Positions 11,312 to 31,094 of a stretch of 39,769 bases of DNA are shown here, in pieces (position 1 is the first letter of the stretch; every line of letters starts with the position of its first letter). The position numbers were made by a program, and so were the translations under genes. This DNA is from a virus: the IMG/VR virus record IMGVR_UViG_3300012922_000004, positions 1 to 39,769 of that record. One strand, written 5' to 3'. The notes beneath the pieces were generated by a model. The model did not search any database. It was not told where the DNA came from and saw only the letters and a list, made by a program, of their open reading frames with translations.

Positions 11312-11383
11312 TGGCGGGTACCCAAGTGGCAAGGGGCGAGACTGTTAATCTCGAGGCCGTTGGTTCGAATCCAACCTCGCCAG
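11312..11383 (+). tRNA. tRNA-Asn (anticodon GUU)
   Basis: Hand-folded cloverleaf. Acceptor TGGCGGG pairs with CTCGCCA (one G-U). U8 present. D-loop AGTGGCA. Anticodon stem CGAGA/TCTCG with loop CTGTTAA. T-arm GTTGG-TTCGAAT-CCAAC. Discriminator G. U1-A72/G73 as in bacterial tRNA-Asn. CCA is not encoded. Confidence 0.9.
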
Positions 11384-12779: not shown

Positions 12780-13894
12780 TCGAAGAGATGACGCGCGACG
12801 TGGTCGCCGAGCAGTTCGCGAAGCTGGGCGGGTCGCTCGAAGGTACCGCAGAGCCCGCAGGAGACGCGGGCGACACGGACATAGCGGAGCCCGCATCTGA
12901 GCCAGAACGCGCGTCTCCGGGCACCGCCCGTGACGAGAAGGGCCGTTTCTCCGCAAAGGCCGCGGAAGCGCCCGGGGAGGCTGCAAAAGCGGCGGACCCC
13001 GGAACGCCTGTGGCCCAGGGAGCGGCTGCTGTGGCTGTGGCGCCCGCTACGGCTGCCGCTCCCGAATTGAAGCCGCCGCAGGACTGGCGCGCGGAGGCGC
13101 GAGCTGAGTTCGCCAAGCTGCCGCGTGTGGTCCAGGAAGAGGCGCTCCGGCTCCACGTGGAGACGAAGAAGGGCCTTCAGGACTTGGCCGAGGCACGGAA
13201 GGAAGCTGGAAGCTGGAAGGAAGCTACCGGCCCTTACGGTCATGTCTTCGGCGGCCAGCCACCGCAACAGGTCGTCGGCAACCTCCTGCGAACCTTCGCT
13301 GCGCTGCAGAGCGGACATCCGCAACAGCGAGCGGCCGTCATTGCGGACATCGTGCGCAGCTACATCGGCACCGACGAACAAGCCATCCGCATCTTGGCGT
13401 CGGCTCTTGACGGCCAGCCGGTTGCCCCCGGCCCGTCCGCCCAGCCAGCGTTGTCGCATGACCAGATTCGCCAGCTCGCGAGGCAGGAGTGGGAGACGGC
13501 GCAGCGGGGAGCGCAGAGCGATGCGGCGGTCAAGACGTGGAAGGACTTCGAGACGGCGAACGGTGAATTCCTGAACGAGCCTGGATTTCGCCAGCGGATC
13601 GCCATCGAACTTCAGGTCGCCATGGACAGTAAAGGCGGCCAGCCGACGAGAGAAGATATCCAGAGCGCTTACGATGCGGCCTGTCAGACGCATCCTGGAG
13701 TCGCCAAGATCATGAACCAGCGCAAGGAAGCGGAAGCGGTCGGGAAGGCGAATGCCTCGACCCAGACGCGCACCGCGGCAGCGATCGGGATCAAGAACGA
13801 GCCGGCTGTAGTCGGGTCGATGAACGAGCCGGCGAAGGATGTACGGGAAGAAGTCACACGGCAGTACGCGCGGCTTTCCAACAAGCGCCGCTAG
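12776..13894 (+). CDS. Scaffolding protein (positional call)
   Basis: 372 aa. Acidic, Ala/Glu/Gln-rich and helical-looking. It lies immediately upstream of the major capsid gene. Confidence 0.55.
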   Translation: MIEEMTRDVVAEQFAKLGGSLEGTAEPAGDAGDTDIAEPASEPERASPGTARDEKGRFSAKAAEAPGEAAKAADPGTPVAQGAAAVAVAPATAAAPELKPPQDWRAEARAEFAKLPRVVQEEALRLHVETKKGLQDLAEARKEAGSWKEATGPYGHVFGGQPPQQVVGNLLRTFAALQSGHPQQRAAVIADIVRSYIGTDEQAIRILASALDGQPVAPGPSAQPALSHDQIRQLARQEWETAQRGAQSDAAVKTWKDFETANGEFLNEPGFRQRIAIELQVAMDSKGGQPTREDIQSAYDAACQTHPGVAKIMNQRKEAEAVGKANASTQTRTAAAIGIKNEPAVVGSMNEPAKDVREEVTRQYARLSNKRR

Positions 13895-14024
13895 GGGACG
13901 ATCCCGAAAGGGAATCCCAACCAAGGCAGTGCCCCTCACCGCTGTGCGGGGCGTGAGCGAACGACGGTGGTCGTTGACGCGCAAAAGCCAGCGGATCTGA
14001 ACACCACACACACTGAGGGATCAC

Positions 14025-14993
14025 ATGCCGAATCCGAACGTCGGCGACCTGGTTGCGTCCACGATCAAGGCGCAGAACAGGAAGTTCGCCGACAACTTCA
14101 CCAACAACAACGCCGCGCTTTTCTGGATGCAGAAGCGCGGGAGCATCAAGCCGCTTGATGGCGGCGAGCAGATCCGCGAGGAACTGGCGTACGCCGCTAA
14201 CGGCAACGCAACCTCATTCGACGGATATGACACGCTGCCGACCGGGCAGCAGGCCGTGTTCGACGCAGCGGATTACCAGTGGAAGCAGTACGCCGTTTCG
14301 ATCACCATCTCGGGCCGCGAGAAGCGTCAGAACAACGGCAGCCCGTGGAAGATGATCGACCTGGTCACCTCCAGGATCAACAACGCGCGCGGGTCGCTCA
14401 AGAACCGCTGGTGTACCGACTTCTACCTCGACGGCACCGGCAACAACGGCAAGAACCTGACTGGCTTGAACCTGCAGGTTCCGACGGATCCGACCACTGG
14501 CACCGTCGGCGGGATCAACCGGGCGAACTTCACCTTCTTCCGTTCGCAGATCAAGACGGTCACGTTCGCGCAGGCGACCATCATCGCGAATATGAACCTG
14601 CTCTGGGTTGCGACCGTCAGAGGGACGGACAAGCCGCAGGCGATCTTGAGCGAGAACGTCGGGTACACCACGTACCTGTCGGCGTTGCAGGCGAACATCC
14701 GGTTCGTTGACGACGACACCGCGGACGCGGGCTTCGAGAACGTCAAGTTCAACTCAGCGCCCGTCATCCTCGATGGCGGCATTGGCGGAGCCTGCCCGGC
14801 CTCGCAGATGTTCTTCCTTAACTTCGACTACCTCTACTGGCGGCCGCACACGGAGTTGAACTTCGCCAGCATGGACGAGGACGAGGACGGACGGCAGCCG
14901 GTCAACCAGGACGCCACGATCAAGTTCCTTGGACTTCAGGGGAACGTCACCTCTTCCGGCCTGCAGTTCCAGGGCCGCTTCAACGGGAGCTAA
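14025..14993 (+). CDS. Major capsid protein
   Basis: 322 aa with a GAGGGA SD. It follows the scaffold gene and precedes a decoration-like gene and a strong terminator. N/T/G-rich beta-type composition. Confidence 0.75.
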   Translation: MPNPNVGDLVASTIKAQNRKFADNFTNNNAALFWMQKRGSIKPLDGGEQIREELAYAANGNATSFDGYDTLPTGQQAVFDAADYQWKQYAVSITISGREKRQNNGSPWKMIDLVTSRINNARGSLKNRWCTDFYLDGTGNNGKNLTGLNLQVPTDPTTGTVGGINRANFTFFRSQIKTVTFAQATIIANMNLLWVATVRGTDKPQAILSENVGYTTYLSALQANIRFVDDDTADAGFENVKFNSAPVILDGGIGGACPASQMFFLNFDYLYWRPHTELNFASMDEDEDGRQPVNQDATIKFLGLQGNVTSSGLQFQGRFNGS

Positions 14994-14996
14994 CCG

Positions 14997-15500
14997 ATGG
15001 CCTCAACTTTCGTTTGGGTGGATGAGCGCATTGGCGCGGTGCCCGTCACGAACGTGGACACCACGCAGCAGCACGTACTGGGTGAGCGGCGCAAGGCGTA
15101 TGACGCGCTTGGCAACCTCGGAACGTGCGAGTTTGTCTACGTGAAGGGGGTGGCGTCTGGAGCGGCTGGTCTGCTCGCGACGTACATCCCGTTCACCGGC
15201 ACGACGGCGCTGACGGTAGCCCGCAGCAAGGGCCTCGTCGGTGTCTTCATGTCGGCGCTCGTGGCCGCTACCTTCGGCTGGCTGCAGATCAAGGGCCTGG
15301 CCGAGATCCAGGTTGCCACCGCTGTTGTGGCTGGCTCGACGGTCTATCTGACCGCGACGAGCGGCAAGGTGGACGACGCGGTGGTCGCGGGCGACATCGT
15401 CTACGGGGCAAACTTCGCCACCGCGGACGGCACGCCGATCGCCAACTGGGCACGTGTCTCGATCGCTGAGCCGTACGTGGGCGACACCGACAACGCGTAA
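14997..15500 (+). CDS. Capsid decoration/cement-like protein (DUF2190-like pattern)
   Basis: 167 aa. Repeated G..V...AG..VY motifs: VVAGSTVYLTATSGKVDD and VVAGDIVYGA. Confidence 0.45.
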   Translation: MASTFVWVDERIGAVPVTNVDTTQQHVLGERRKAYDALGNLGTCEFVYVKGVASGAAGLLATYIPFTGTTALTVARSKGLVGVFMSALVAATFGWLQIKGLAEIQVATAVVAGSTVYLTATSGKVDDAVVAGDIVYGANFATADGTPIANWARVSIAEPYVGDTDNA

Positions 15501-19492: not shown

Positions 19493-20494
19493 ATGGGTGG
19501 AATCAGTGTTCCCAATCCGCTGAGCAAGGGAGCTCCGGATATGCCCGACTACAAGGGCGCGTCCGAGCAGGCTACCCGCAACAGCCGACCGAATCAGAAC
19601 ACGCCTTGGGCGAGCTCGACTTGGACCTCCGGCTCGATGCCGGGTGCCCCCGGCGCTCAGAGCATGCTTGACCGGATGCTGCATCGGGCTCCTGGCGCCC
19701 CGACCGGCGACGGTCGGGACACGCAGACGATCGGACTCGCCGGACCGCTAGATGCCGCTAACCAGTCCATGATGGGCCAGCTTCAATCTGCCTGGGGCAC
19801 TCCGCTCGACAACGGGGCTGGCGCACGCCAGCACGCGGAAGACGCGATCTACGGCCGCGCCACTGCGCGATTGGATCCGATGTGGGATCAGCGCCAGCAT
19901 TCCATGCAGACCGACTTGGCCAACCAGGGGATCGACCCGAACAGCGCGGCTTACGGGAAGTCACTCGACAACTTCAGCCGCGGGCGTAACGATGCGTACT
20001 CGAGCGCGCTACAGGACGCGATCACGGGGGGCGGGCAGGAGGCGAGCAGGCAGCAGGCCATGGATCTTCAGTCTCGGCTGGCTCCGTTTTTGGGCATGCA
20101 GGGGATACAGGGGTTGTCGGGAATGCCCGGGTTCCAGACCGGAGGGAACCCGCTGCAGGCGGCGGCGCTTCATGGTCAGTATGGGATGGACGCGGCCCAA
20201 TATAATCGCGACTTCTGGAAGGACTTGATCGCTGGCGGGGCCGGTGCCGTGAAAGCGGGTGGCCTCGGCGGCGCTGCAGCAGCATCGGACGAGCGCCTCA
20301 AGACCGACATTCGCCGATTTGCTGACGTAGACTTTGCGCCCGGTGTCCCCGTCGCCTCGTTCCGGTATGTCTGGGAGCCAGTCGGTACGCGGCATCTCGG
20401 CGTCATCGCTCAGGACGTGGAAGCCGTCTGCCCTGGTCTCGTTACCTACCGTGGCGGATACCGCTATGTCCCTGTTCGCTTCCTGCTGACCTAG
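19493..20494 (+). CDS. Fibre or internal-virion-like protein with C-terminal peptidase-S74 intramolecular chaperone domain
   Basis: AASDERLKTDIRRF...VASFRYVWEP..GTRHLGVIAQDVEAVCPGLV is the S-D-x-R-L-K autocleavage signature. The N-terminal part is G/Q/M-rich. Confidence 0.75.
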   Translation: MGGISVPNPLSKGAPDMPDYKGASEQATRNSRPNQNTPWASSTWTSGSMPGAPGAQSMLDRMLHRAPGAPTGDGRDTQTIGLAGPLDAANQSMMGQLQSAWGTPLDNGAGARQHAEDAIYGRATARLDPMWDQRQHSMQTDLANQGIDPNSAAYGKSLDNFSRGRNDAYSSALQDAITGGGQEASRQQAMDLQSRLAPFLGMQGIQGLSGMPGFQTGGNPLQAAALHGQYGMDAAQYNRDFWKDLIAGGAGAVKAGGLGGAAAASDERLKTDIRRFADVDFAPGVPVASFRYVWEPVGTRHLGVIAQDVEAVCPGLVTYRGGYRYVPVRFLLT

Positions 20495-23116: not shown

Positions 23117-24163
23117 ATGCGAAATCGTCTGCTCGTCACTGCGGGCATTATCACCATCATGCTTTTCGGGTCTGCGCTGGGCGGCTACTTCTGGCATGTC
23201 TCGCACGCAGACGCCTCCCGTAACAGCGCGGGCACCTACAGCCTGGCCACATCTCCGGTGGTTAGCGGGCAGACGATCGGGTCGGCCCTCTGGAACAACA
23301 CCTTCAACGACCTGGCTACCGGCGTCACCGACAGTCTGGATCGCAATGGCCGCGGCGGAATGCTGGCCGCGCTCCGCGGGATCGATGGCACGGTGGCCGC
23401 GCCTGCGCTGAGTTTCACGTCGGAGACGGGCAGCGGGCTCTATCGGATCGGTACGTCTGACGCGGGCTTCGCGATCTCGGGTGCGAAGGTTGGCGAGTGG
23501 ACTGCGAACGGGTATCGCGGCGCCAACGGCGCGGTGGCTACGCCGAGTTTGAGCTTCTTCAACGACACCGGCAGCGGACTCTACCGGATCGGCTCGAACG
23601 ATATCGGGTTCGCGATCAACGGCGCGATTGTGCAGGAGTGGACGGCCACCGGATCCGCGTTTACGGGAACGCTGAGCGCCGCCGTCTCCGGCACCGGATC
23701 AACCTTCCTGGCCACCTTCTTCGAAGCGTCACTGGCGAACGGGAACAGCGGCACTCTGGCGGTTGGAAAAGCCAACTCAGCGAATGCGTCGGTTGGGCTC
23801 CAGTTTAATCCGAACGCTACAGCCGCCAACTCGACCGGCTGCCTGGTGGTCAACGGCCAGACGGCAACGCTGTGCGTGGACGGGAACAACAAGACGATCG
23901 TGGGTGGGGCGATGACTGTTGCCGGCACAACCACGTCGAACGGGTTTTTCTGCAACAACTACTCAAGCGACACAGATCGCTGCGGCATCGCTACGCTAGA
24001 CGGTTCAGGAAACAAGACCGAGACTATGGCGGCCGGCGTGCATGCCTGCGTGTGTACGGACACCACCGTGGTAGCCGCGGCGGCGGTCGGCTGTAACGTC
24101 TCCGGCGGCACCCTGACGCTCAAGGGCACTGCGGCACACCTGATCAACTACTTCTGCTTCTGA
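23117..24163 (+). CDS. Tail fibre-like protein with hydrophobic N-terminus
   Basis: AGGAG SD. Two copies of the ...AP(A/S)LSF..(E/D)TGSGLYRIG..D.GFAI.G... fibre repeat. N-terminal LLVTAGIITIMLFGSALGGYFW. Cys-rich C-terminus. Confidence 0.6.
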   Translation: MRNRLLVTAGIITIMLFGSALGGYFWHVSHADASRNSAGTYSLATSPVVSGQTIGSALWNNTFNDLATGVTDSLDRNGRGGMLAALRGIDGTVAAPALSFTSETGSGLYRIGTSDAGFAISGAKVGEWTANGYRGANGAVATPSLSFFNDTGSGLYRIGSNDIGFAINGAIVQEWTATGSAFTGTLSAAVSGTGSTFLATFFEASLANGNSGTLAVGKANSANASVGLQFNPNATAANSTGCLVVNGQTATLCVDGNNKTIVGGAMTVAGTTTSNGFFCNNYSSDTDRCGIATLDGSGNKTETMAAGVHACVCTDTTVVAAAAVGCNVSGGTLTLKGTAAHLINYFCF

Positions 24164-24378
24164 CCGGCGCAGAACTTCTCGCATTCGCGCCGTTCCCATT
24201 CGCAAGTCGGCCCCGGATACCAATAGCCAACCGACAATACCATCCCGCACTCGTGGATGCAGGTGATCTCGTAGTGCAGGTTAGGGGTTTGCACGAGGGC
24301 CAGTTGTTCGCACTCAACGCCCCCGCACCCAATCAACATCGCCAACACGAGCCATCGCATGGAGGCGCAAGCTAGCAC
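24148..24378 (-). CDS. Antisense-oriented Cys-rich lipoprotein (moron)
   Basis: Lipobox LAMLIG-C. The mature peptide has 8 Cys. This is the only plausible ORF in the 254-nt gap of the plus-strand operon. Good GC3. Start is GTG 24378 or ATG 24360. Confidence 0.55.
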   Translation of the reverse strand: MLACASMRWLVLAMLIGCGGVECEQLALVQTPNLHYEITCIHECGMVLSVGYWYPGPTCEWERRECEKFCAGQKQK

Positions 24379-24416: not shown

Positions 24417-24623
24417 ATGATCACTGGCAAGCAGATCGCCGTCATTGCCGGGGCTGCTGGTGCCTTCGTGGGCGGCGTCGTGCTCGGCCTTGGGAGCGGA
24501 CATGCCTCGCCCCCGCCGATCGACGCGAAGATCGAGGCGCTGGCGAGGGATGTGACTGAGATGCGCGCGGACATCAAAGCGATCAAATGCAAGCTGAACA
24601 TCGACGGAACGTGTCCACGATGA
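24417..24623 (+). CDS. Single-TM protein with periplasmic coiled coil (holin or i-spanin-like)
   Basis: TM IAVIAGAAGAFVGGVVLGLG, then IDAKIEALARDVTEMRADIKAIKCKL. 68 aa. Confidence 0.5.
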   Translation: MITGKQIAVIAGAAGAFVGGVVLGLGSGHASPPPIDAKIEALARDVTEMRADIKAIKCKLNIDGTCPR

Positions 24624-24817
24624 GAGTCCTTCTTCTCCTGCTTCTGCTGACCGCCTGCGCCACCCCGACGCGGATCATGGTCCCGCATGTCTGCGTCCCC
24701 TCGCGCGATTCGCCAGCATTCCAGAAGTGCAAGGCGGACTGCGAAGGTGATGCCTTCATCGTGGAGAACGCGGCGGATACCGCCTGCTACTGCCGCAAGC
24801 CGCCGGAGGGCACATAG
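24620..24817 (+). CDS. Small Cys-rich lipoprotein (o-spanin-like or immunity-like)
   Basis: ATGA overlap. MRVLLLLLLLTA-C is a canonical lipobox. The mature peptide has 7 Cys. Confidence 0.6.
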   Translation: MRVLLLLLLLTACATPTRIMVPHVCVPSRDSPAFQKCKADCEGDAFIVENAADTACYCRKPPEGT

Positions 24818-25207
24818 ATGTGGGTCTATTCGGTCAAGCCGGAGAAGTTCTATCACGCGGTGGGCGGCGTGGAACGGTTGCTTCCGGAAACCCCGTACTC
24901 TGGATTTGGGGAAGCGAAGAACGATCCGAGCAAGCAGCAGCTAGCTGGCCTCGGGCCTATTCCGCAGGGGGTCTACTGGATCGGGGCAGAGCGCGAGGAC
25001 TCGGATTGTGGGCCGGTGGTGCTACCCCTGACTCCGCTGCGCGGAACAGAGACGTTCCAGCGTGGCTCGTTCGAGATCCATGGCGACTCGAAAGAGCACC
25101 CAGGCTCCGCCTCGCATGGCTGCATCATCCTCCCGCGCAAGCTGCGAGAGCAGATCGCGGACGGACACGACAAGCTGCTGGTAGTACTGGCCGGGATCCA
25201 GACCTAG
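24818..25207 (+). CDS. Tlde1/DUF2778-type L,D-transpeptidase-fold peptidase (endolysin candidate)
   Basis: YSGFGEAKNDPSKQQLAGLGPIPQGVYWIG and SFEIHGDSKEHPGSASHGCIILP (H-x13-S-H-G-C). GGAGGG SD. Confidence 0.75.
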   Translation: MWVYSVKPEKFYHAVGGVERLLPETPYSGFGEAKNDPSKQQLAGLGPIPQGVYWIGAEREDSDCGPVVLPLTPLRGTETFQRGSFEIHGDSKEHPGSASHGCIILPRKLREQIADGHDKLLVVLAGIQT

Positions 25208-25269: not shown

Positions 25270-26055
25270 TTGAATGGGCCGGCGATCGTTACGCTCGATA
25301 TCGAGACAGCGCCGCTTCAGTCCTACCACTGGGGACTTTGGGACCAGAACATCGGGCTGGATCAGATCGCGATCGAGTGGAGCATTCTTAGCTTCTCCGC
25401 AAAGTGGCTTGGCGAGCTCGGGGTCATCTACCGAGACACGGGAGGGCGTGGCAGGGCTAACGTCCGCAAGGATAGATGCCTTCTGGTTGACCTTTGGAAC
25501 ATCCTCGACAAGGCGGACATTGTGATCGCGCAGAACGGGCAAGCCTTCGATGTGAAGAAAATCAATGCCCGGATGTTGATGCACGGGATGAAGCCGTACT
25601 CACCGATCAAGATTGTAGATACGATGCTCGTTAGTCGCAGACACTTCGACTTTACGAGCAACAAACTACAATGGCTTTCCGAGCACCTGACGGAGATCAA
25701 GAAGTCTCCTCACAAGAAGTTCCCGGGCTTCGAACTCTGGGCAGAGTGCCTGAAAGACAATCCGGCCGCGTGGGCGGAGATGAAGCACTACAACTGCCAG
25801 GATACGCTGGCCACCGAACAGCTCTACCTGAAGCTGCGTCCCTGGATGGTTGGGCACCCCAATATAGCCGTCTACTCCTCGAGCGAGGATCCGCAGTGCC
25901 CGAAGTGCGGGAGCCACGAGATGCAGCGCCGCGGGAGTGCGTTTACTCAGTCTGGCGAATACCACCGCTTCCGGTGCAACAAATGCGGTGGGTGGGCGCG
26001 GTCTAGATACACCACGAACACGCTGGAGAAACGCCATGCGCTGCTGTCCAACTAG
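25270..26055 (+). CDS. DnaQ/PolB-exo-like 3'-5' exonuclease with C-terminal zinc ribbon
   Basis: ExoI LDIETAP, ExoII QNGQAFDVKKIN, ExoIII HYNCQDTLATEQLY, and CPKCG...CNKCG. The only in-frame start near the domain is TTG 25270. Confidence 0.7.
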   Translation: MNGPAIVTLDIETAPLQSYHWGLWDQNIGLDQIAIEWSILSFSAKWLGELGVIYRDTGGRGRANVRKDRCLLVDLWNILDKADIVIAQNGQAFDVKKINARMLMHGMKPYSPIKIVDTMLVSRRHFDFTSNKLQWLSEHLTEIKKSPHKKFPGFELWAECLKDNPAAWAEMKHYNCQDTLATEQLYLKLRPWMVGHPNIAVYSSSEDPQCPKCGSHEMQRRGSAFTQSGEYHRFRCNKCGGWARSRYTTNTLEKRHALLSN

Positions 26056-26126: not shown

Positions 26127-26387
26127 ATGCCTAGAAGCAAGATGGCGGGTCGCCCCTGTCAACGCTGTTCGGAGAAAGATGCGCAGCTCGCGACGCGGGC
26201 GGCGGAGAATCTGACCCTGCGTATGCAATGCGAAGCGCAGGAAAACATTCTCTCTTACTACAACGGATCGTGTGAGGAGATGGGGAAGCTGATCGACGAT
26301 ATGTCTGGAGGCTTGGTGGCTCGTTTGAAGCGCATCTTGGCCCGCCACGGGGTTGTGTTCGCACCAGAGAGGCGGCCGCTCCAATGA
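26127..26387 (+). CDS. Hypothetical soluble Cys-containing protein (86 aa)
   Basis: GAGGA 6 nt upstream of ATG 26127. Sequence MPRSKMAGRPCQRCSEKDAQL... Confidence 0.5.
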   Translation: MPRSKMAGRPCQRCSEKDAQLATRAAENLTLRMQCEAQENILSYYNGSCEEMGKLIDDMSGGLVARLKRILARHGVVFAPERRPLQ

Positions 26388-26629
26388 TTCCTCTTCTGCG
26401 GAAGCTCCTTCACGGCTTTTTCTTTGATGAGCGCGCGGCACGAAGGTGGATCCGTGGCGGGCTGATGGCATTCGCTGCGAGCGGTGTGGCCTTCGCCGAT
26501 CAGTTGGGCTCCGCCCTCGGTTCGCCAACAGCCACGAAGTGGGTCCGGGTCACGGCCATCATCGCTGGATTCGCGGCCGGCGCAATCCAGAGCTCTGCCG
26601 CCAAGCCTCGGCTCAAGGTGGTCCCATGA
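26384..26629 (+). CDS. Two-TM membrane protein (class II holin-like)
   Basis: ATGA overlap. Hydrophobic segments GGLMAFAASGVAFA and WVRVTAIIAGFAAGAI. Basic C-terminus. Confidence 0.5.
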   Translation: MIPLLRKLLHGFFFDERAARRWIRGGLMAFAASGVAFADQLGSALGSPTATKWVRVTAIIAGFAAGAIQSSAAKPRLKVVP

Positions 26630-26841
26630 GATGGCTAGTAATGGTTGGTTTACTAAGTCCTGGCGTTAGTCAAGGATCGGCTGAGCCGGGCCTGGTGATC
26701 GTCTGCGCTAGTGGCGGCGTGCTTCCAATGGGGCGCGGAGCGGTGGCGATCGGTGGAACCTGCGTGCTGCACGACGGGGCTGGGCGGGCGACCACCGTGG
26801 AGTCTTTGGGCGCGTACGACCAAACGCTGGCGGTCCCATGA
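26626..26841 (+). CDS. Small protein with signal-like N-terminus
   Basis: ATGA overlap. Sequence MRWLVMVGLLSPGVSQG... 71 aa. Confidence 0.4.
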   Translation: MRWLVMVGLLSPGVSQGSAEPGLVIVCASGGVLPMGRGAVAIGGTCVLHDGAGRATTVESLGAYDQTLAVP

Positions 26842-26930
26842 CCCTCTTCCTTCTCGGCTTCCTATCCTGTTTTGCGCTGGGCACAGGGGCGCTGTTTCTA
26901 GCCGCGTGGAAACTTGGCGTGTGGCGATGA
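26838..26930 (+). CDS. 30-aa single-TM microprotein
   Basis: Hand-translated: MTLFLLGFLSCFALGTGALFLAAWKLGVWR. ATGA overlaps at both ends. Confidence 0.3.
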   Translation: MTLFLLGFLSCFALGTGALFLAAWKLGVWR

Positions 26931-27361
26931 AGCGCCTCGCGCTTTGCGCCCTGTGCGCCGCATGCTCCATGAGCAAAAGCTCAGAATCCCAATCCTCCTA
27001 CGCGCAGAAGGTGGATACGGTGACGGAGCGGGGGGCGGTGAAGGTAACGACTACCGTGGAGGACTTTGGGCCGGCGAGTTCAGGGGCTACACCGGGTCAA
27101 GCCGTAGGGCTGTCCGGCCCGCCGCGCCCAATTCGCCGCATCACCCGCGTCACCGAGCGCGATCCGGTGGTCACGCACACGGATTCAGCGGTAGCCGCGT
27201 CGGGAGAGGCTCATGCAGCCTCGGCTAGCCGCTTCGGGATTCCGTGGTGGTTGTGGCTGGCCGGCGCGGCAGCGCTCGTGGTGGCCATCCTCGCCCTCAA
27301 GCCCCCCTGGCTACCCCCCGCCCTCACCATCCTGCAACGCATCTTCCGGAGGAGCAATTGA
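26927..27361 (+). CDS. Protein with signal/lipoprotein-like N-terminus and C-terminal TM anchor (u-spanin-like topology)
   Basis: MKRLALCALCAACS (imperfect lipobox) and a C-terminal IPWWLWLAGAAALVVAILAL. 144 aa. Confidence 0.45.
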   Translation: MKRLALCALCAACSMSKSSESQSSYAQKVDTVTERGAVKVTTTVEDFGPASSGATPGQAVGLSGPPRPIRRITRVTERDPVVTHTDSAVAASGEAHAASASRFGIPWWLWLAGAAALVVAILALKPPWLPPALTILQRIFRRSN

Positions 27362-29397
27362 AGCGCTTGCTTGCCTTGCTCGCTGTCGCGATCACCGTCC
27401 CGTTCCAGATGACGTTCAGGGCTGATGGGACCGGCGCAGTCTCCCGGAAGATCGGGAGCAAGCTGGGGGATGTGGTGAGCGTGAAGGATTTCGGGGCAGA
27501 CCCAGCGGCGTCAGCTGCGACCAACACGACTGCTATCAACGCGGCCCTGACCTACGTCGGCGGCCTAACTCAGGGTGGGACGGTCACCATTCCGGCTGGT
27601 GCCTATTCTGTCACGCCCACGATCGTGATCAACAAGTCCAATGTTTACTTGAGTGGGGCTGGGAGAGGCAATACCGTCCTGACCGGGAACGCCGCCAGTG
27701 GTGGAAGTGCGGGGGTTATCTCGATCACGGCAGCCGGGGCGTTATCGAACGTCGGGATTGCCGACCTCGGAATCACATGCACCGGCACGATCCTTACGAC
27801 CTACGCCAGCGGGAGCGGCACCTACAACAATTACGGGATCTATACAGGTGTCGATCTGACGGCCCTGGAGATTTCTGGACTCGCCGTGACCTCCTGTGGT
27901 GCGGGGATCGGAACGACCTACCCGACACCACCGAATACTCTGCTGCACGGGAGTAGCATCCATGACAATTTCTTCTACGGGCTCAGCCCATCCGTCCTTA
28001 GTACGCACATCGCGATTCAGATTATCAGCGATACCACGCTGATCGATCGCAACTGGGCGAGCGGCTTCACGGTCGCCTACAATTCTCCGCCATGGAGCAA
28101 CCGGAACCGTTGGACGAACAACACCGGGATCATGCCGGCGAACGGCAACGATGTCTGTATCTACCTCTCGGGGGCGATCCAGAGCACTGTGGCCCATAAC
28201 CACTGCATCATGACGTTGCCGATCAGTTCTACTGGCGACGGCTGTATCAAGATGGGTGCCTATAACGACCCGCACGTATCGGATAAATGGCGGGTCGATG
28301 ACAATTACTGCGAGAATGGCGGGATCAAGTTCTCCCGTTGCGCAGAGGGGTCGGTAGTTGACAACACGGTTAACGGTAGCAATAGCGCTGGCATTTTCTT
28401 CGATAACACCGCTTTCCCGGTCTGGAACATCCAGAGTATTACGGCCAGTTCTCCGATTGTCGGACAGGCGACGGTAGTCGTGGACTCTGCTACCTCTGCG
28501 TTGGCCGCCCCTGTCAATATCACCATAGCCGGCACCGGGACGGGTCACGATGGGTCGCATGCGCTGGTGGCGACCGGCACCAACTCTCTGATCATCACAG
28601 ATGCCACGGCTGGCAACGTTGGGGTTGTCGGGACGGCTACCCCGTTCGACATTGCCGGTATCTCTGAGTCCGTCACCGTCTGCCGGGACATGAAGCTCGA
28701 CGCCAACACAATCGTGGATGCTGGCCGATCGGGGGCATCAACCGGAGAGGGCATCAAGTCACTACGCACGGACCGGTGGGGGCTTAGTAATAACATTATC
28801 AAGCATCCCAACAGTGCTGGCATTGACCTACGGAACGGGACCGATGTGGCGATCAGCGGGGGGTCTATCTCCGACACTACGAATCAGGCGGTGTATCTTG
28901 ACGCGATCGTGGGCGGTGCCATTACTGGCGGCGCATACGTCCAGACCGGGACCTTCGGATCCACTCCGGCTATCCGTATTGGCAACAGCAGTAGCTATGT
29001 GAGCATAGTCGGCGTGCGAACCAATAACTACGCACGCGGGGCACAGGTGGATACCGGTACTAACGATCACATCCTCATCACTGGAAACAACTTTGTAGGA
29101 TGCGGAGGCGGCAACTGTACGAACGGGATCAACATCGACGGATCGTGTACCTTCTGCAATGCCGGCCTGAACGCTATTACCAACTTCACGAACATTCCAG
29201 GCTCGCTCGGTGGAACGTCCAGCGTTCCGGCATCGGTGGCGCTCGTAGCTGGCGCCGGGTCGGTTCAGGTGCCGGCCGGCTGCAATCCGTGGTGCACGGA
29301 CTCGACAGCAGCGGCAGCAGTGAAATGCTCCGTGAGCAGCACCACGCTGACGATCGCCGGCACGGGTACGGACACGATCAAATACGGCTGCAACTGA
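27358..29397 (+). CDS. Pectate-lyase-fold right-handed beta-helix protein (tailspike or depolymerase) with signal-like N-terminus
   Basis: VSVKDFGADPAASAATNTTAINAAL..GGTVTIPAGAYSV is the Pectate_lyase_3 pattern. Long N/G/T/I-rich repeats. TTG 27358 has GGAGGA 4 nt upstream. ATG 27409 has no SD. Confidence 0.7.
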   Translation: MKRLLALLAVAITVPFQMTFRADGTGAVSRKIGSKLGDVVSVKDFGADPAASAATNTTAINAALTYVGGLTQGGTVTIPAGAYSVTPTIVINKSNVYLSGAGRGNTVLTGNAASGGSAGVISITAAGALSNVGIADLGITCTGTILTTYASGSGTYNNYGIYTGVDLTALEISGLAVTSCGAGIGTTYPTPPNTLLHGSSIHDNFFYGLSPSVLSTHIAIQIISDTTLIDRNWASGFTVAYNSPPWSNRNRWTNNTGIMPANGNDVCIYLSGAIQSTVAHNHCIMTLPISSTGDGCIKMGAYNDPHVSDKWRVDDNYCENGGIKFSRCAEGSVVDNTVNGSNSAGIFFDNTAFPVWNIQSITASSPIVGQATVVVDSATSALAAPVNITIAGTGTGHDGSHALVATGTNSLIITDATAGNVGVVGTATPFDIAGISESVTVCRDMKLDANTIVDAGRSGASTGEGIKSLRTDRWGLSNNIIKHPNSAGIDLRNGTDVAISGGSISDTTNQAVYLDAIVGGAITGGAYVQTGTFGSTPAIRIGNSSSYVSIVGVRTNNYARGAQVDTGTNDHILITGNNFVGCGGGNCTNGINIDGSCTFCNAGLNAITNFTNIPGSLGGTSSVPASVALVAGAGSVQVPAGCNPWCTDSTAAAAVKCSVSSTTLTIAGTGTDTIKYGCN

Positions 29398-29416
29398 TTC
29401 CCAACCAGGCGGGCCG

Positions 29417-29450
29417 CGCCCCATGGGGCGGGGGTTAGGGCCTGCGGCCC
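29417..29450. terminator. GC-rich hairpins between convergent operons (candidate bidirectional terminator)
   Basis: Perfect palindrome CGCCCCATGGGGCG at 29417-29430 and GGGCC-tgc-GGCCC at 29438-29450. No clear U-tract. Confidence 0.4.
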
Positions 29451-29460
29451 GGCCAGGGGG

Positions 29461-30011: not shown

Positions 30012-31094
30012 TCACTCGCCCTTCGCCTTCCGCTCCCCGCCCGCTCCCTGCTCCAACAAGGCGATCGCGGCTTCTTTGCTCCCCTTGGACAGGTGCATGT
30101 AGCGCATCGTCGTGGTCAGGTTGGCGTGCCCGGCGAGCTCCTGGATCACCCTGGCCGGCGCTCCGCGCATCGCCAGGTGCGAGCAGAAGGTGTGTCGCAG
30201 CTTGTGCAGGTTCTTCGAGGGTGGAAGCCCAGCCTTCTTGGTCGCTCTGAACAGCCAGCTTCTCAGGGTGTGGACCCCGACCGGCTCCCCGTCATCCTGC
30301 CAGAGCAGGCGTGGCCCGCGCAGATGGCGGACGGCGGCGATCGCTTCCGCGAGGCGTGCGGTCAACGGGATGGTGCGGCCCTTGCCGCTCTTGGTGGTCC
30401 CCGTGTGGCCCTCCCACTCGTTCCGCACGACCCGCACTGATACTCGACTGACATCAGACCACTGGAGCGCAACAAGCTCGCCGCGACGGAGTCCAGCATC
30501 TCCACCGAGCAGCAGGGCACAGAGTACCATCGGCCCCGTGCGGCGCGCGCCCTCGATGAGCGCCTCCCATTCCTCGAAGTCATAGAACTCCATCTCCGGA
30601 AGCCGGACTTTGGGTTGATCGATCCGCGGTGCCTTGACGATCTCTTCCCAGCGCTCTGCGGTGCGCAGGATAGTCGCGAGCAGGGCGAGAATGCAGGCCC
30701 GCGTCTTGTCGGCGTTGCCGGCCAGGTGCAGCTTGAGCTTCTGGATCTCTGGCTCTCCGATCTCGTTCAGCCGTAGCCCTCCGAGCACCGGGTAGAGGTG
30801 CTTCCGGAGGCGCATCTCGTTCGCCTCGATGGTGGAGGGCTTGTGGCCGTTGGCGATCGTGTACTCCTTGATCCACCGGGACCCGAACTCGCGCAGTGTT
30901 GGCGCCGGCACCTCTTCCTTGGTCTCCCCGTTGTGGGCCAGGTGGCGGGCCCTGGACTCCGCCCAGCGCTTTGCCCCGCTCTGGCTGGTGATCTCCATGG
31001 GAACGTTGGAGCGCTTGCGTATGGGCCCCGCAGGGCCCTTCACGCGAATGTCTGCGACCAGCTTCCCGTTCCGGGTCTCGATTCGCACCGTCAT
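30012..31094 (-). CDS. int: Tyrosine recombinase (phage integrase)
   Basis: RRGELVALQW, HKLRHTFCSHLAMRGA, LAGHANLTTTMRYMHL (R..H-x-x-R..H..Y). 360 aa. Confidence 0.95.
   Translation of the reverse strand: MTVRIETRNGKLVADIRVKGPAGPIRKRSNVPMEITSQSGAKRWAESRARHLAHNGETKEEVPAPTLREFGSRWIKEYTIANGHKPSTIEANEMRLRKHLYPVLGGLRLNEIGEPEIQKLKLHLAGNADKTRACILALLATILRTAERWEEIVKAPRIDQPKVRLPEMEFYDFEEWEALIEGARRTGPMVLCALLLGGDAGLRRGELVALQWSDVSRVSVRVVRNEWEGHTGTTKSGKGRTIPLTARLAEAIAAVRHLRGPRLLWQDDGEPVGVHTLRSWLFRATKKAGLPPSKNLHKLRHTFCSHLAMRGAPARVIQELAGHANLTTTMRYMHLSKGSKEAAIALLEQGAGGERKAKGE

What the first reader, a model, noticed from the sequence alone, without database searches (positions are those of the whole stretch)
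26127..29397. Coupled chain of five small membrane or exported proteins feeds directly into a beta-helix protein that lacks a tail-binding N-domain and starts with a signal-like peptide
Six consecutive ORFs are joined by 4-nt start/stop overlaps: ATGA at 26384, 26626, 26838 and 26927, and TTGA at 27358. In order they are:
- a soluble CxxC protein;
- a 2-TM protein;
- a protein with a signal-like N-terminus;
- a 30-aa TM peptide;
- a protein with a signal/lipoprotein-like N-terminus plus a C-terminal TM anchor (u-spanin topology);
- a 679-aa pectate-lyase-fold beta-helix protein.

The only SD-supported start for the beta-helix protein (TTG 27358, GGAGGA 4 nt upstream) gives the N-terminus KRLLALLAVAITVPF. 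The lyase-type motif VSVKDFGADP follows only about 40 residues in. That leaves no room for a virion-attachment domain.

This could be a displaced holin/antiholin/u-spanin cassette that merely abuts a tailspike. It could also be an undescribed export or anchoring module for a secreted depolymerase.
Basis: partly seen in the sequence, partly recalled or inferred. Interest (0 to 1): 0.68.

Follow-up and report, generated by a model that had tools for sequence, protein, structure and literature searches.

The report
Phage lysis genes beside leader-bearing depolymerase
The small genes are most likely the membrane half of a myxobacterial phage's host-lysis cassette, and the large beta-helix gene beside them is a sugar-cutting receptor enzyme that, like this phage clade's tail fibre, begins with a secretion-type leader, which hints that these phages export their receptor-binding proteins.

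Summary
Six ORFs (26127-29397) are chained by ATGA/TTGA overlaps, and TTG 27358 is the best start for the 679-aa beta-helix protein F. The window is a temperate podophage distantly related to Myxococcus phages Mx8/Mx9.

Comparative genomics gives these readings:
- **B** belongs to a small 2-helix family that follows the peptidoglycan-hydrolase gene in almost every relative, directly in four of the five hydrolase families seen. This is the holin slot.
- **E** belongs to a family with an invariant lipobox Cys and a C-terminal TM helix, the unimolecular-spanin architecture. It sits where relatives carry N-TM coiled-coil proteins.
- **C** has homologues. **D** resembles 30-33-aa TM peptides in relatives. 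**A** is an orphan.

B-E are therefore lysis genes, split from their Tlde1-like endolysin (24818-25207) by an exonuclease gene and A. They are not an export machine for F.

F-like helices with a hydrophobic N-terminal leader recur in five related phages, before or after the holin/spanin genes. One relative has the same TTGA junction. None of 74 unrelated viral homologues has such a leader.

The phage's own tail fibre (23117-24163) and at least 57 homologues carry textbook Sec signal peptides. Their A-x-A site abuts the canonical mature N-terminus, and their mature parts are Cys-rich. Export of receptor-binding proteins is inferred, not shown.

The parts
23117..24163 (+). Tail fibre (348 aa). 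Residues 1-33 are a Sec-type leader (MRNRLLVTAGIITIMLFGSALGGYFWHVSHADA|SRN). A conserved tail-binding N-domain follows, then a Cys-rich C-terminal part.
   Evidence: The N-domain is 45-77% identical to Mx8 p64, Mx9 p14, L005 and L181. Leader survey.
24148..24360 (-). Convergent small lipoprotein gene (MRWLVLAMLIGC|GG, 7 Cys) directly after the fibre gene. Candidate receptor-masking or superinfection-exclusion protein.
   Evidence: A minus-strand lipoprotein occupies the same position in L005, L010, L181, L182 and L185.
24417..24623 (+). u1: 68 aa, N-terminal TM helix plus a short periplasmic helix with 2 Cys (i-spanin-like topology, unusually short).
   Evidence: Homologue in L185, 39% identity.
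24620..24817 (+). u2: 65-aa lipoprotein (LLTAC lipobox), Pro/Cys-rich (o-spanin-like). ATGA overlap with u1.
   Evidence: Homologues in L184 and, by position and similar sequence only, L087 and L185.
24818..25207 (+). Tlde1_dom / YkuD-fold protein (129 aa, H...SHGC motif). Endolysin candidate.
   Evidence: Pfam PF10908 E=1.7e-11; phrog_24118 E=1e-30. It occupies the slot filled by Amidase_2, Amidase_3, Hydrolase_2 or Phage_lysozyme in relatives.
25270..26055 (+). DnaQ-like exonuclease with a Zn ribbon. It interrupts the lysis cassette.
   Evidence: phrog_403 E=2e-103. In L182 its homologue (70% identity) lies after E instead. It is absent between endolysin and B in L005, L087 and L094.
26127..26387 (+). 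A: 86-aa soluble CxxC protein. Orphan; first gene of the coupled chain, with its own GAGGA SD.
   Evidence: No homologue in any fetched locus and no family hit.
26384..26629 (+). B: 81-aa holin-like protein. It has an N-terminal amphipathic helix with a conserved D-E-x-A-A-R-R-W-[LI]-R-G motif and two Gly/Ala-rich helices.
   Evidence: Family alignments A2/A3. AF2 helices at 2-14, 16-45 and 48-72. Position next to endolysins.
26626..26841 (+). C: 71-aa small protein with a short hydrophobic N-terminus and 2 Cys. Accessory envelope protein of unknown role.
   Evidence: Homologues lie between the holin-like gene and E in L088 (78%) and L184 (46%).
26838..26930 (+). D: 30-aa single-TM peptide with a basic C-terminus. 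Its ~90 nt are absent from L088.
   Evidence: Similar 30-33-aa TM peptides occur in the lysis regions of L181, L185 and L010.
26927..27361 (+). E: 144-aa lipoprotein-signal plus C-terminal-TM protein (unimolecular-spanin architecture).
   Evidence: Family of 9 representatives with an invariant lipobox Cys; window E has no periplasmic Cys. Homologues in L088, L010, L182, L184 and L185.
27358..29397 (+). F: 679-aa right-handed beta-helix (pectate-lyase-like) protein. Residues 1-17 are a hydrophobic leader (27358-27408). Residues 18-49 are the beta-helix cap motif. Residues ~638-678 are a Cys module shared with the fibre (29269-29394). 16 Cys in total.
29410..29451 (.). GC-rich inverted repeats between the stop of F and the convergent gene. 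Likely bidirectional terminator at the end of the late operon.
30012..31094 (-). Tyrosine integrase. It marks the end of the late region.
   Evidence: PF00589.

Best explanation
**Setting.** The region is the distal end of the late operon of a temperate Mx8-like podophage of a myxobacterium.

**Small genes.** B-E are the membrane part of its lysis cassette.
- B is the holin-type protein. It lets the cytoplasmic Tlde1-like peptidoglycan enzyme (24818-25207) reach the wall.
- E is a unimolecular-spanin-type protein. It is tethered to the outer membrane by its lipid and to the inner membrane by its C-terminal helix, and it disrupts the outer membrane last.
- C and D are small accessory envelope proteins.
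- A and the exonuclease gene are insertions that split the cassette.

**F.** F is a polysaccharide-depolymerase-type receptor-binding module. It lacks this clade's tail-binding N-domain and instead carries a short Sec-type leader or signal anchor. It is probably inserted into or through the inner membrane late in infection and folds with disulfides outside the cytoplasm. It then acts on, or is released to, the cell-surface polysaccharide (and possibly the virion) only when the holin and spanin fire.

**Why F sits next to B-E.** In this clade the fibre, depolymerase and lysis genes all sit at the end of the late operon. The adjacency does not reflect a dedicated export device.

**Shown:** gene structure, family membership by sequence, conserved neighbourhoods, leader conservation.
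**Inferred:** every function, export, and timing.
For: **Phage identity.**
- Portal is 39.5% identical to Mx8/Mx9.
- Adaptor, nozzle and other tail genes are syntenic with Mx8 p51-p54.
- A B homologue lies in an Anaeromyxobacter prophage.

**B as holin-type.** B-family genes lie immediately downstream of:
- Tlde1_dom in L005, L087, L094-96 and L182;
- Amidase_3 in L085/86;
- Amidase_2 in L100;
- Hydrolase_2 in L090.
In L010 they lie one gene after Phage_lysozyme. ATGA coupling is frequent.

**E as spanin-type.**
- The E slot after B holds either an E-family protein (window, L088, L010, L182) or an N-TM coiled-coil protein of 211-275 aa (L085, L090, L094-96, L100).
- All E-family members have a lipobox Cys and a C-terminal TM helix, and window E has no Cys beyond its signal peptide. 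This matches the u-spanin definition and the 'no periplasmic Cys' feature in PMC6139136.

**F as a receptor-binding module.**
- PF12708 scores above its cut-off.
- The same cap plus helix is fused to the fibre's tail-binding N-domain in L067.
- F shares a C-terminal Cys module with its own fibre and with the L182 fibre and helix.

**Leader on F.**
- The junction has an SD plus TTG and the leader codons have high GC3.
- Hydrophobic leaders of 12-25 aa precede the cap in L010, L182, L184, L185 and the L181 523-aa protein.
- None of 74 other viral cap-motif proteins has one.
- L185 has the same E-TTGA-helix junction with GGAGG upstream.

**Export plausibility.**
- Among 57 leader-bearing fibre homologues, -1 is Ala in 49 and -3 is Ala in 46. 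In 51 of 57 the junction obeys the -3/-1 rule exactly at the conserved mature N-terminus, against 38% background.
- 93% of them have a positive n-region.
- Mature Cys median is 6 against 1 in leaderless fibres (p=3e-13), and the count is even in 49 of 57.
Against: - No SignalP, LipoP or TMHMM was run. Topologies rest on hydropathy and rule reading.
- F's own leader is the weakest of the set: a 13-residue h-region and no acceptable A-x-A site.
- B has no match to any described holin family, and its helices are only weakly hydrophobic.
- The window also has a two-component-spanin-like pair (u1/u2, 24417-24817), so E may not be the functional spanin.
- A and D have no homologues.
- The leaderless L067 tailspike also has 14 Cys, so Cys-richness of a helix is not specific to exported ones.
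- An exported fibre or spike could not meet cytoplasmic virions before the holin fires, and no such pathway has been described.
- The AF2 model of F failed (pLDDT 34), so the fold rests on sequence only.
Confidence: 0.6

Rival explanations
1. F is an ordinary cytoplasmic second tailspike. The short hydrophobic N-terminal peptide is a docking peptide that plugs into the fibre or tail hub. The lysis genes are just neighbours.
For: - Short N-termini before the cap are common in phage homologues (18 of 74).
- The F-like helix is a bona fide tailspike module in L067.
- F shares a C-terminal module with the fibre.
- F's h-region is only 13 residues with no cleavage site.
- In L182 the orthologue sits right after the fibre gene.
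Against: - Leaders in the five relatives are conserved in hydrophobic character and position but not in sequence or length (12-25 aa, Gly/Ala-rich in L184 and L010). That is the signal or anchor pattern, not a docking-peptide pattern.
- The short N-termini of other phages are polar.
- The same clade's fibres carry unmistakable signal peptides.
Confidence: 0.22
2. C-E, or the whole B-E set, form a dedicated partner, export or anchoring module for the beta-helix enzyme. u1/u2 would be the real spanin.
For: - In all six loci where an E-family gene has context (window, L088, L010, L182, L184, L185), a beta-helix gene lies within 0-2 genes. It carries a leader wherever its N-terminus is visible.
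- The E-TTGA-helix junction recurs in L185.
- The window and L185 also carry a u1/u2 pair that could be the spanin.
Against: - The B family occurs with five endolysin families and without a beta-helix gene in L085, L090, L094-96 and L100.
- The E slot is filled by i-spanin-like proteins there.
- The helix gene lies before the holin-like gene in four loci and after E in two, so no fixed order exists.
- A Sec-type leader needs no extra exporter.
- The 6/6 co-occurrence may simply reflect one sub-clade.
Confidence: 0.08
3. F is a lysogenic-conversion or superinfection-exclusion enzyme. It would be made from the prophage and sent to the periplasm, where it trims nascent O-antigen or exopolysaccharide so the lysogen loses its receptor.
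For: - F is the last gene before the terminator-like hairpin and the integrase, a classic moron position.
- Its GC (codon positions 0.50/0.55/0.71) is below the genome mean.
- A leader would put it where polymers are assembled. An exported bacterial tailspike-like enzyme, WceF, is a precedent (PMC7949094).
Against: - F's start overlaps the stop of E and no promoter-like site lies upstream.
- Orthologues sit mid-operon between fibre, endolysin and holin genes in L182, L010 and L184.
- The convergent lipoprotein next to the fibre is a better exclusion candidate.
Confidence: 0.07

Closest known systems
Unimolecular spanin, prototype phage T1 gp11 (Kongari et al. 2018, PMC6139136)
   Same: E has an N-terminal lipoprotein signal with a lipobox Cys, a C-terminal TM helix, no periplasmic Cys, and a position at the end of a lysis cassette after the holin-type gene.
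   Different: E has no sequence similarity to any described u-spanin family (no PHROG, Pfam or NCBIfam hit). The window also encodes a two-component-like pair (u1/u2). In two phages E is followed by a translationally coupled beta-helix gene. Function is untested.
Class II holins / pinholins (e.g. phage 21 S68; from my own knowledge)
   Same: B is a small (68-93 aa) protein with two helices. The first is Gly/Ala-rich. It is encoded next to the endolysin and has a basic C-terminal tail.
   Different: B has a 25-residue N-terminal amphipathic segment with a conserved DExAARRW[LI]RG motif. It has no dual-start motif and no membership in a described holin family. The partner endolysins lack SAR domains.
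SAR (signal-anchor-release) endolysins such as P1 Lyz and R21 (from my own knowledge)
   Same: A cell-envelope-degrading enzyme encoded in or next to the lysis cassette, with an N-terminal, weakly hydrophobic, uncleaved-looking anchor. This is seen especially in L184 and L010.
   Different: F is a polysaccharide-type beta-helix, not a muralytic enzyme. F's own leader is Leu/Ala-rich and short. Release has not been tested.
Phage tailspike / capsule depolymerases with short N-termini that ride on a primary receptor-binding protein (Klebsiella KP32-type systems; from my own knowledge)
   Same: Beta-helix with the GTGAV..R...KL.D.VSVKDFGA cap close to the N-terminus. A second receptor-binding protein gene lies near a primary fibre gene.
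   Different: The N-terminal peptide is hydrophobic and signal-like rather than polar (0 of 74). There is a shared Cys-rich C-terminal module.
Pantoea stewartii WceF, a bacterial exported tailspike-like exopolysaccharide hydrolase (PMC7949094)
   Same: A tailspike-fold beta-helix enzyme made with an N-terminal export signal. It acts on the producer's own exopolysaccharide.
   Different: WceF is chromosomal, uses a Tat signal and keeps a P22-tailspike-like head domain. F is phage-encoded, has a Sec-like leader and has no head domain.
Myxococcus phages Mx8 (p64, p66-p72) and Mx9 (p14-p20)
   Same: Same virion module. The fibre carries a signal peptide (…PASA|TRN). It is followed by leader-bearing accessory proteins (p66; SGNH-like p67/p15) and then a lysis cassette that includes a signal-plus-C-terminal-TM protein (p71/p19).
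   Different: A-F have no sequence homologues in Mx8/Mx9. The endolysin there looks NlpC/P60-like (read from the sequence, not tested against Pfam). The accessory enzymes are not beta-helices.

Membership tests
Unimolecular spanin (T1 gp11 type) | N-terminal outer-membrane lipoprotein signal with a lipobox Cys | tested here: met
   MKRLALCALCAAC|S. The Cys is invariant in 9 family members, with lipoboxes LAAC, LLGC, LVAC, LIAC, LAGC and FCGC. This is rule reading only; LipoP was not available.
Unimolecular spanin (T1 gp11 type) | C-terminal transmembrane domain | tested here: met
   KD 2.04 at residues 103-127. Conserved in all members.
Unimolecular spanin (T1 gp11 type) | No periplasmic cysteine; beta-rich periplasmic domain (PMC6139136) | tested here: inconclusive
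   The Cys of window E are at positions 7, 10 and 13 only, inside the signal peptide. Secondary structure was not predicted.
Unimolecular spanin (T1 gp11 type) | Encoded in the lysis cassette with holin and endolysin | tested here: met
   E follows the holin-like gene, sometimes with C between, in six loci. An endolysin lies in the same operon in five of them.
Unimolecular spanin (T1 gp11 type) | Disrupts the outer membrane / complements Rz-Rz1 | not testable with these tools
   Needs a genetic test. A rival spanin-like pair, u1/u2, is present.
Holin | Small membrane protein with at least one TM domain and a charged C-terminus | tested here: inconclusive
   AF2 gives helices at 16-45 and 48-72 (pLDDT 68). 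Hydropathy is below 1.6 with a 19-residue window. The C-terminal KPRLK is basic.
Holin | Gene adjacent to the endolysin gene across relatives | tested here: met
   Five peptidoglycan-hydrolase families lie upstream of B-family genes, directly in four of them. In the window itself, the exonuclease gene and A intervene.
Holin | Membership of a described holin sequence family | tested here: not met
   No Pfam, PHROG or NCBIfam hit.
Holin | Lethal hole formation that releases the endolysin | not testable with these tools
   Needs an expression experiment.
Pectate-lyase-like beta-helix (tailspike / depolymerase) | Match to a beta-helix family model | tested here: met
   PF12708, 34.8 bits against a cut-off of 27, residues 40-122. 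PDB 7chu_A E=5.5e-7. TIGR03805 is weak.
Pectate-lyase-like beta-helix (tailspike / depolymerase) | Predicted three-dimensional beta-helix fold | tested here: inconclusive
   Single-sequence AF2 gave pLDDT 34. No fold search was possible.
Pectate-lyase-like beta-helix (tailspike / depolymerase) | N-terminal virion-binding domain | tested here: not met
   F has no similarity to the clade's fibre N-domain, which L067 fuses to the same cap. Only 17 residues precede the cap.
Sec signal peptide (on F) | Positive n-region and hydrophobic h-region | tested here: met
   K2 and R3, then LLALLAVAITVPF. Analogous leaders occur in five relatives.
Sec signal peptide (on F) | Small residues at -3 and -1 (signal peptidase I site) | tested here: not met
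   F has no acceptable site after the h-region (VPFQ|M). Only A-V-A at residues 9-11 fits, which is too early. By contrast, 51 of 57 leader-bearing fibres obey the rule.
Sec signal peptide (on F) | Actual translocation | not testable with these tools
   Needs PhoA or BlaM fusions or fractionation.
Anti-phage defence systems (PADLOC) | Match to a defence-system protein model | tested here: not met
   No hit for A-F, u1, u2 or the flanking small ORFs.

The most novel reading that the evidence does not exclude
A whole clade of Mx8-like temperate podophages of Myxococcota sends its receptor-binding proteins through the Sec pathway.

- The tail fibre carries a cleavable signal peptide. Removing it regenerates the canonical tail-binding N-terminus.
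- The accessory beta-helix and esterase enzymes, F among them, carry leaders or signal anchors.
- These proteins would fold with disulfides in the periplasm.
- They could then reach the cytoplasmic particles, or the surface polysaccharide, only after the holin and spanin act.

This implies either post-lysis arming of virions, or a holin-released 'depolymerase lysin' that clears slime and receptors. Neither is a described step in tailed-phage assembly or lysis.
Probability: 0.4. Interest if true: 0.85.

Novelty: new variant of a known kind. Interest (0 to 1): 0.63.

Why it matters
If the leaders work as they look, tailed-phage fibres and depolymerases can mature outside the cytoplasm. That would change how virion arming, disulfide-dependent receptor-binding proteins and progeny release from slime-covered hosts are understood. 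It would also add a 'depolymerase' step to the holin-endolysin-spanin scheme.

The question is directly testable. Mx8 and Mx9 are cultured phages whose fibre (p64/p14) carries the same signal peptide.

Independently, the work defines:
- a new holin-like family (B);
- a new u-spanin-like family (E);
- a Tlde1/YkuD-fold protein in the endolysin slot.

All three are useful for annotating myxobacterial and soil phages, where these genes are currently 'hypothetical'.

Tried and rejected
**Searches that found nothing useful**
- Megablast of 20-32 kb and tblastn of F against 50,697 phage records: no match.
- Direct scans of IMG/VR with F and with E: no relatives.
- Metagenome scan with the E alignment: nothing.
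- Metagenome scan with the B alignment: one short contig.
- Genome scan with the B alignment: one Anaeromyxobacter prophage only.
- Alignments A2 and A4 were too divergent for pattern scans.
- tblastn of A-F against Mx8/Mx9: no homologues, so those genomes give only topological analogies.
- NCBIfam and PADLOC: nothing meaningful for A-E.
- Papers: nothing on signal peptides on tail fibres, Mx8 fibre proteins or Tlde1-type endolysins.

**Analyses that failed or were uninformative**
- AF2 of F without an alignment gave pLDDT 34, so no fold search was run.
- The promoter/terminator consensus scan found nothing above shuffles. Only GC-rich inverted repeats lie after F.
- A first motif scan for cap proteins was too strict and missed L010.

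**Ideas considered and dropped**
- An upstream GTG 27244 start for F. That segment is the 3' end of E in another frame, and read by eye it has low third-position GC in F's frame.
- Tat or lipoprotein signals on F. It has no twin-arginine motif and no lipobox Cys.
- Cys-richness of the beta-helix as proof of export. The leaderless L067 spike has 14 Cys.

Full report
**What the window is**

The window matches, almost end to end, one 39,787-bp ENA metagenome contig.
- Its portal is 39.5% identical to those of Myxococcus phages Mx8 and Mx9.
- Its adaptor (SU10_adaptor), nozzle, a 135-aa protein and a Peptidase_S74-ended protein are syntenic with Mx8 p51-p54.
- Its fibre N-domain matches Mx8 p64 and Mx9 p14.
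- An integrase lies at 30012-31094 on the minus strand.

It is therefore a temperate podophage of the Mx8 type. The host is probably a member of Myxococcota. A B homologue lies in an Anaeromyxobacter oryzisoli prophage, and one fibre homologue is named from Corallococcus.

**Check of the observation**

The five 4-nt overlaps and all coordinates are correct.
- TTG 27358 has GGAGGAG 3 nt upstream. ATG 27409 has no SD.
- The 17 leader codons have GC 0.59/0.35/0.88 by codon position.
- An independent gene call uses the same start.
- 4-nt overlaps join about half of all gene pairs in this genome, so the chain itself is ordinary operon packing.

Topologies were judged by hydropathy and rule reading only.
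- A is soluble with CxxC.
- B has two weak Gly/Ala-rich helices. AF2 with six homologues gives helices at 2-14, 16-45 and 48-72, pLDDT 68.
- C has a short hydrophobic N-terminus.
- D is a 30-aa TM peptide.
- E has MKRLALCALCAAC|S plus a TM helix at 103-127.
- F matches PF12708 above its cut-off.

**The small genes are lysis genes**

B has homologues. In nearly every case with context, they sit directly after a peptidoglycan hydrolase gene:

| Upstream hydrolase | Loci |
|---|---|
| Tlde1_dom | L005, L087, L094-96, L182 |
| Amidase_3 | L085/86 |
| Amidase_2 | L100 |
| Hydrolase_2 | L090 |
| Phage_lysozyme, one gene away | L010 |

One conserved small membrane protein paired with interchangeable endolysins is the classic holin signature.

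The next slot holds one of two things:
- an E-family protein (window, L088, L010, L182);
- an N-TM coiled-coil protein of 211-275 aa, i-spanin-like (L085, L090, L094-96, L100).

A full HMMER scan found nine E-family representatives.
- All have a lipobox Cys, which is invariant in alignment A4.
- All have a C-terminal TM helix.
- Window E has no Cys beyond its signal peptide.

This is the architecture that defines unimolecular spanins, and it includes the reported lack of periplasmic Cys (PMC6139136).

The remaining small genes:
- C has homologues between the holin-like gene and E in L088 (78%) and L184 (46%).
- D is about 90 nt absent from L088. Similar 30-33-aa TM peptides occur in the lysis regions of L181, L185 and L010.
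- A has no homologue anywhere.

In the window, the endolysin candidate is the Tlde1_dom protein at 24818-25207, which carries an H...SHGC motif. The exonuclease gene (phrog_403) and A separate it from B. In L182 the homologous exonuclease lies after E instead, so this is a rearrangement. No defence-system model matches any of these proteins.

**F and its leader**

The segment F 18-49 (MTFRADGTGAVSRKIGSKLGDVVSVKDFGADP) is the conserved beta-helix cap. It occurs in three contexts:
- after a 100-aa N-domain in P0002;
- after the clade's fibre N-domain in L067, which is a true tailspike;
- after 25-36 polar residues in 18 of 74 other viral homologues.

A short N-terminus is therefore not unusual. 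None of those 74 has a hydrophobic leader. In contrast, F-like helices in the window's relatives all do:

| Locus | Leader |
|---|---|
| L182 | MLNLLALLLLAAPV |
| L185 | (M)RVRNHLVLGAVGALFLALPLIGAAI |
| L184 | MTRWRLVVAGTVAAIAVTTGVGAAGGLGLL |
| L010 | MRRETLLGGLVAALIVAGGVVAV |
| L181, 523-aa protein | present |
| L088, truncated minus-strand ORF | present |

The leaders differ in sequence and length. That pattern fits targeting signals, not docking peptides. F's own leader is the weakest of the set, with 13 hydrophobic residues and no A-x-A site.

The position of the helix gene varies between phages:
- after E, with the same SD-TTGA junction, in L185;
- before the holin-like gene in L184, L010, L088 and L089;
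- before the endolysin in L182.

The helix gene thus belongs to the same end-of-operon neighbourhood but has no fixed coupling to E. It is absent next to B in L085, L090, L094-96 and L100. This argues against B-E being an export module for F. However, a helix gene lies close to every E-family gene that has context (6 of 6), which keeps a small probability alive for that idea.

F shares a C-terminal Cys module with its own fibre (57% over 35 aa) and with the L182 fibre and helix. F has 16 Cys, whereas core virion proteins have 0-1.3% Cys.

**The fibre signal peptide**

The window's fibre (23117-24163) starts MRNRLLVTAGIITIMLFGSALGGYFWHVSHADA|SRNSAGTY. Most homologues in IMG/VR start directly at M[PSA]RN..GTY.

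A subset carries a leader that ends exactly at that conserved residue. It includes Mx8 p64, Mx9 p14, the Anaeromyxobacter prophage and many metagenomic relatives.

Among the 102 closest database homologues, 57 carry the leader:

| Feature | Leader-bearing fibres (n=57) | Comparison |
|---|---|---|
| -1 is Ala | 49 | |
| -3 is Ala | 46 | |
| Obey the -3/-1 rule at the junction | 51 | 38% background; binomial p about 1e-15, not corrected for relatedness |
| Net positive start | 93% | |
| Median mature Cys | 6 | 1 in 39 leaderless fibres (p=3e-13) |
| Even Cys count | 49 | |

This is what cleavable Sec signal peptides on disulfide-bonded extracytoplasmic proteins look like. Cleavage would regenerate the canonical tail-binding N-terminus. 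I found no paper describing this.

How an exported fibre would reach a cytoplasmic particle is unknown. Attachment after the holin fires is the only route I can propose. It is inference only.

**Verdict**

| Claim | Estimated probability |
|---|---|
| B-E are lysis genes (holin-like, accessory, u-spanin-like) | about 0.8 |
| F is a leader-bearing depolymerase-type module that is exported or membrane-anchored | about 0.5 |
| F is an ordinary cytoplasmic second tailspike | about 0.2 |
| B-E are a dedicated export module for F | about 0.08 |
| F is a prophage-expressed conversion enzyme | about 0.07 |

The lysis cassette is a new member of known kinds. The leader-bearing receptor-binding proteins are the part that would surprise a specialist, and they can be tested directly in Mx8.

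Noticed in passing
window 23117-23215 (leader of the fibre gene 23117-24163); also Mx8 p64 (L004 36781-), Mx9 p14 (L002 5383-), L005 5541-, L010 9983-, L090 ~8316-: The tail fibre carries a textbook Sec signal peptide whose A-x-A site abuts the conserved mature N-terminus [STA]RN..GTY. 57 of the 102 closest database homologues have it. Their mature parts have a median of 6 Cys (even in 49 of 57), against 1 in leaderless fibres.
   Followed up: yes
window 24148-24360 (-): A small Cys-rich lipoprotein gene lies convergent to, and immediately after, the fibre gene. A minus-strand lipoprotein sits in the same place in L005 (two of them), L010, L181, L182 and L185. The position recalls receptor-blocking lipoproteins such as T5 Llp (from memory).
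   Followed up: partly
window 24417-24817 (+): u1 (N-TM plus short helix, 2 Cys) and u2 (LLTAC lipoprotein, Pro/Cys-rich) overlap by ATGA and look like a miniature two-component spanin upstream of the endolysin. The phage may therefore carry two spanin-type systems. Homologues in L185 (u1) and L184 (u2).
   Followed up: partly
window 24818-25207 (+): A Tlde1_dom / YkuD-fold protein with an H...SHGC motif occupies the endolysin slot. In relatives it is interchangeable with Amidase_2, Amidase_3, Hydrolase_2 and Phage_lysozyme. Its PHROG (24118) is annotated 'unknown function'.
   Followed up: partly
window 24055-24160 and 29269-29394; L182 10901-11023 and 12738-12896; L185 C-terminus of 13384-15048: The fibre and the beta-helix protein end in the same ~40-aa Cys-bounded module (C.CTD.T...A.V.C.....TLT......I.Y.C[FN]). 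It often ends in an aromatic residue. Its role is unknown; it could be receptor binding, folding or sorting.
   Followed up: partly
L181 13726-18096: In the closest full-length relative (nozzle 78% identical), four translationally coupled proteins of 559, 257, 120 and 523 aa lie between the lysis genes and the integrase. Each starts with a short hydrophobic leader. The last has the cap region and a weak Phage_depo_C hit.
   Followed up: partly
L088 1729-2046 (-): A 105-aa minus-strand ORF next to the integrase region encodes a hydrophobic leader plus the start of a beta-helix cap (IDVRDFGAKCDGETDDT) and then stops. It is possibly a remnant of a displaced helix gene.
   Followed up: no
L181 12483-13052; L098 2830-3336; L099 4961-5467: A different protein type fills the slot after the holin-like gene. 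It has an N-terminal TM helix, a periplasmic part (with an E-family-like EEGAWSVKTWEYAP motif in L181), and a C-terminus ending ...GVRMDF or ...TLGFEF that resembles an outer-membrane beta-signal.
   Followed up: no
window 25270-26055 (+): The exonuclease gene (phrog_403) sits inside the lysis cassette here. In L182 it sits after E, where its TTG start overlaps the stop of E. That is the same junction style as E-F in the window.
   Followed up: partly
window 11312-11383 (+): A tRNA-Asn (GTT) gene lies between the portal gene and the next structural genes.
   Followed up: no
window 19493-20494 (+): A Gln/Gly/Ala-rich 333-aa protein ends in a Peptidase_S74 (intramolecular chaperone) domain. It is homologous to Mx8 p54, annotated 'virion structural protein'. 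It may be a second fibre or needle of this tail.
   Followed up: no
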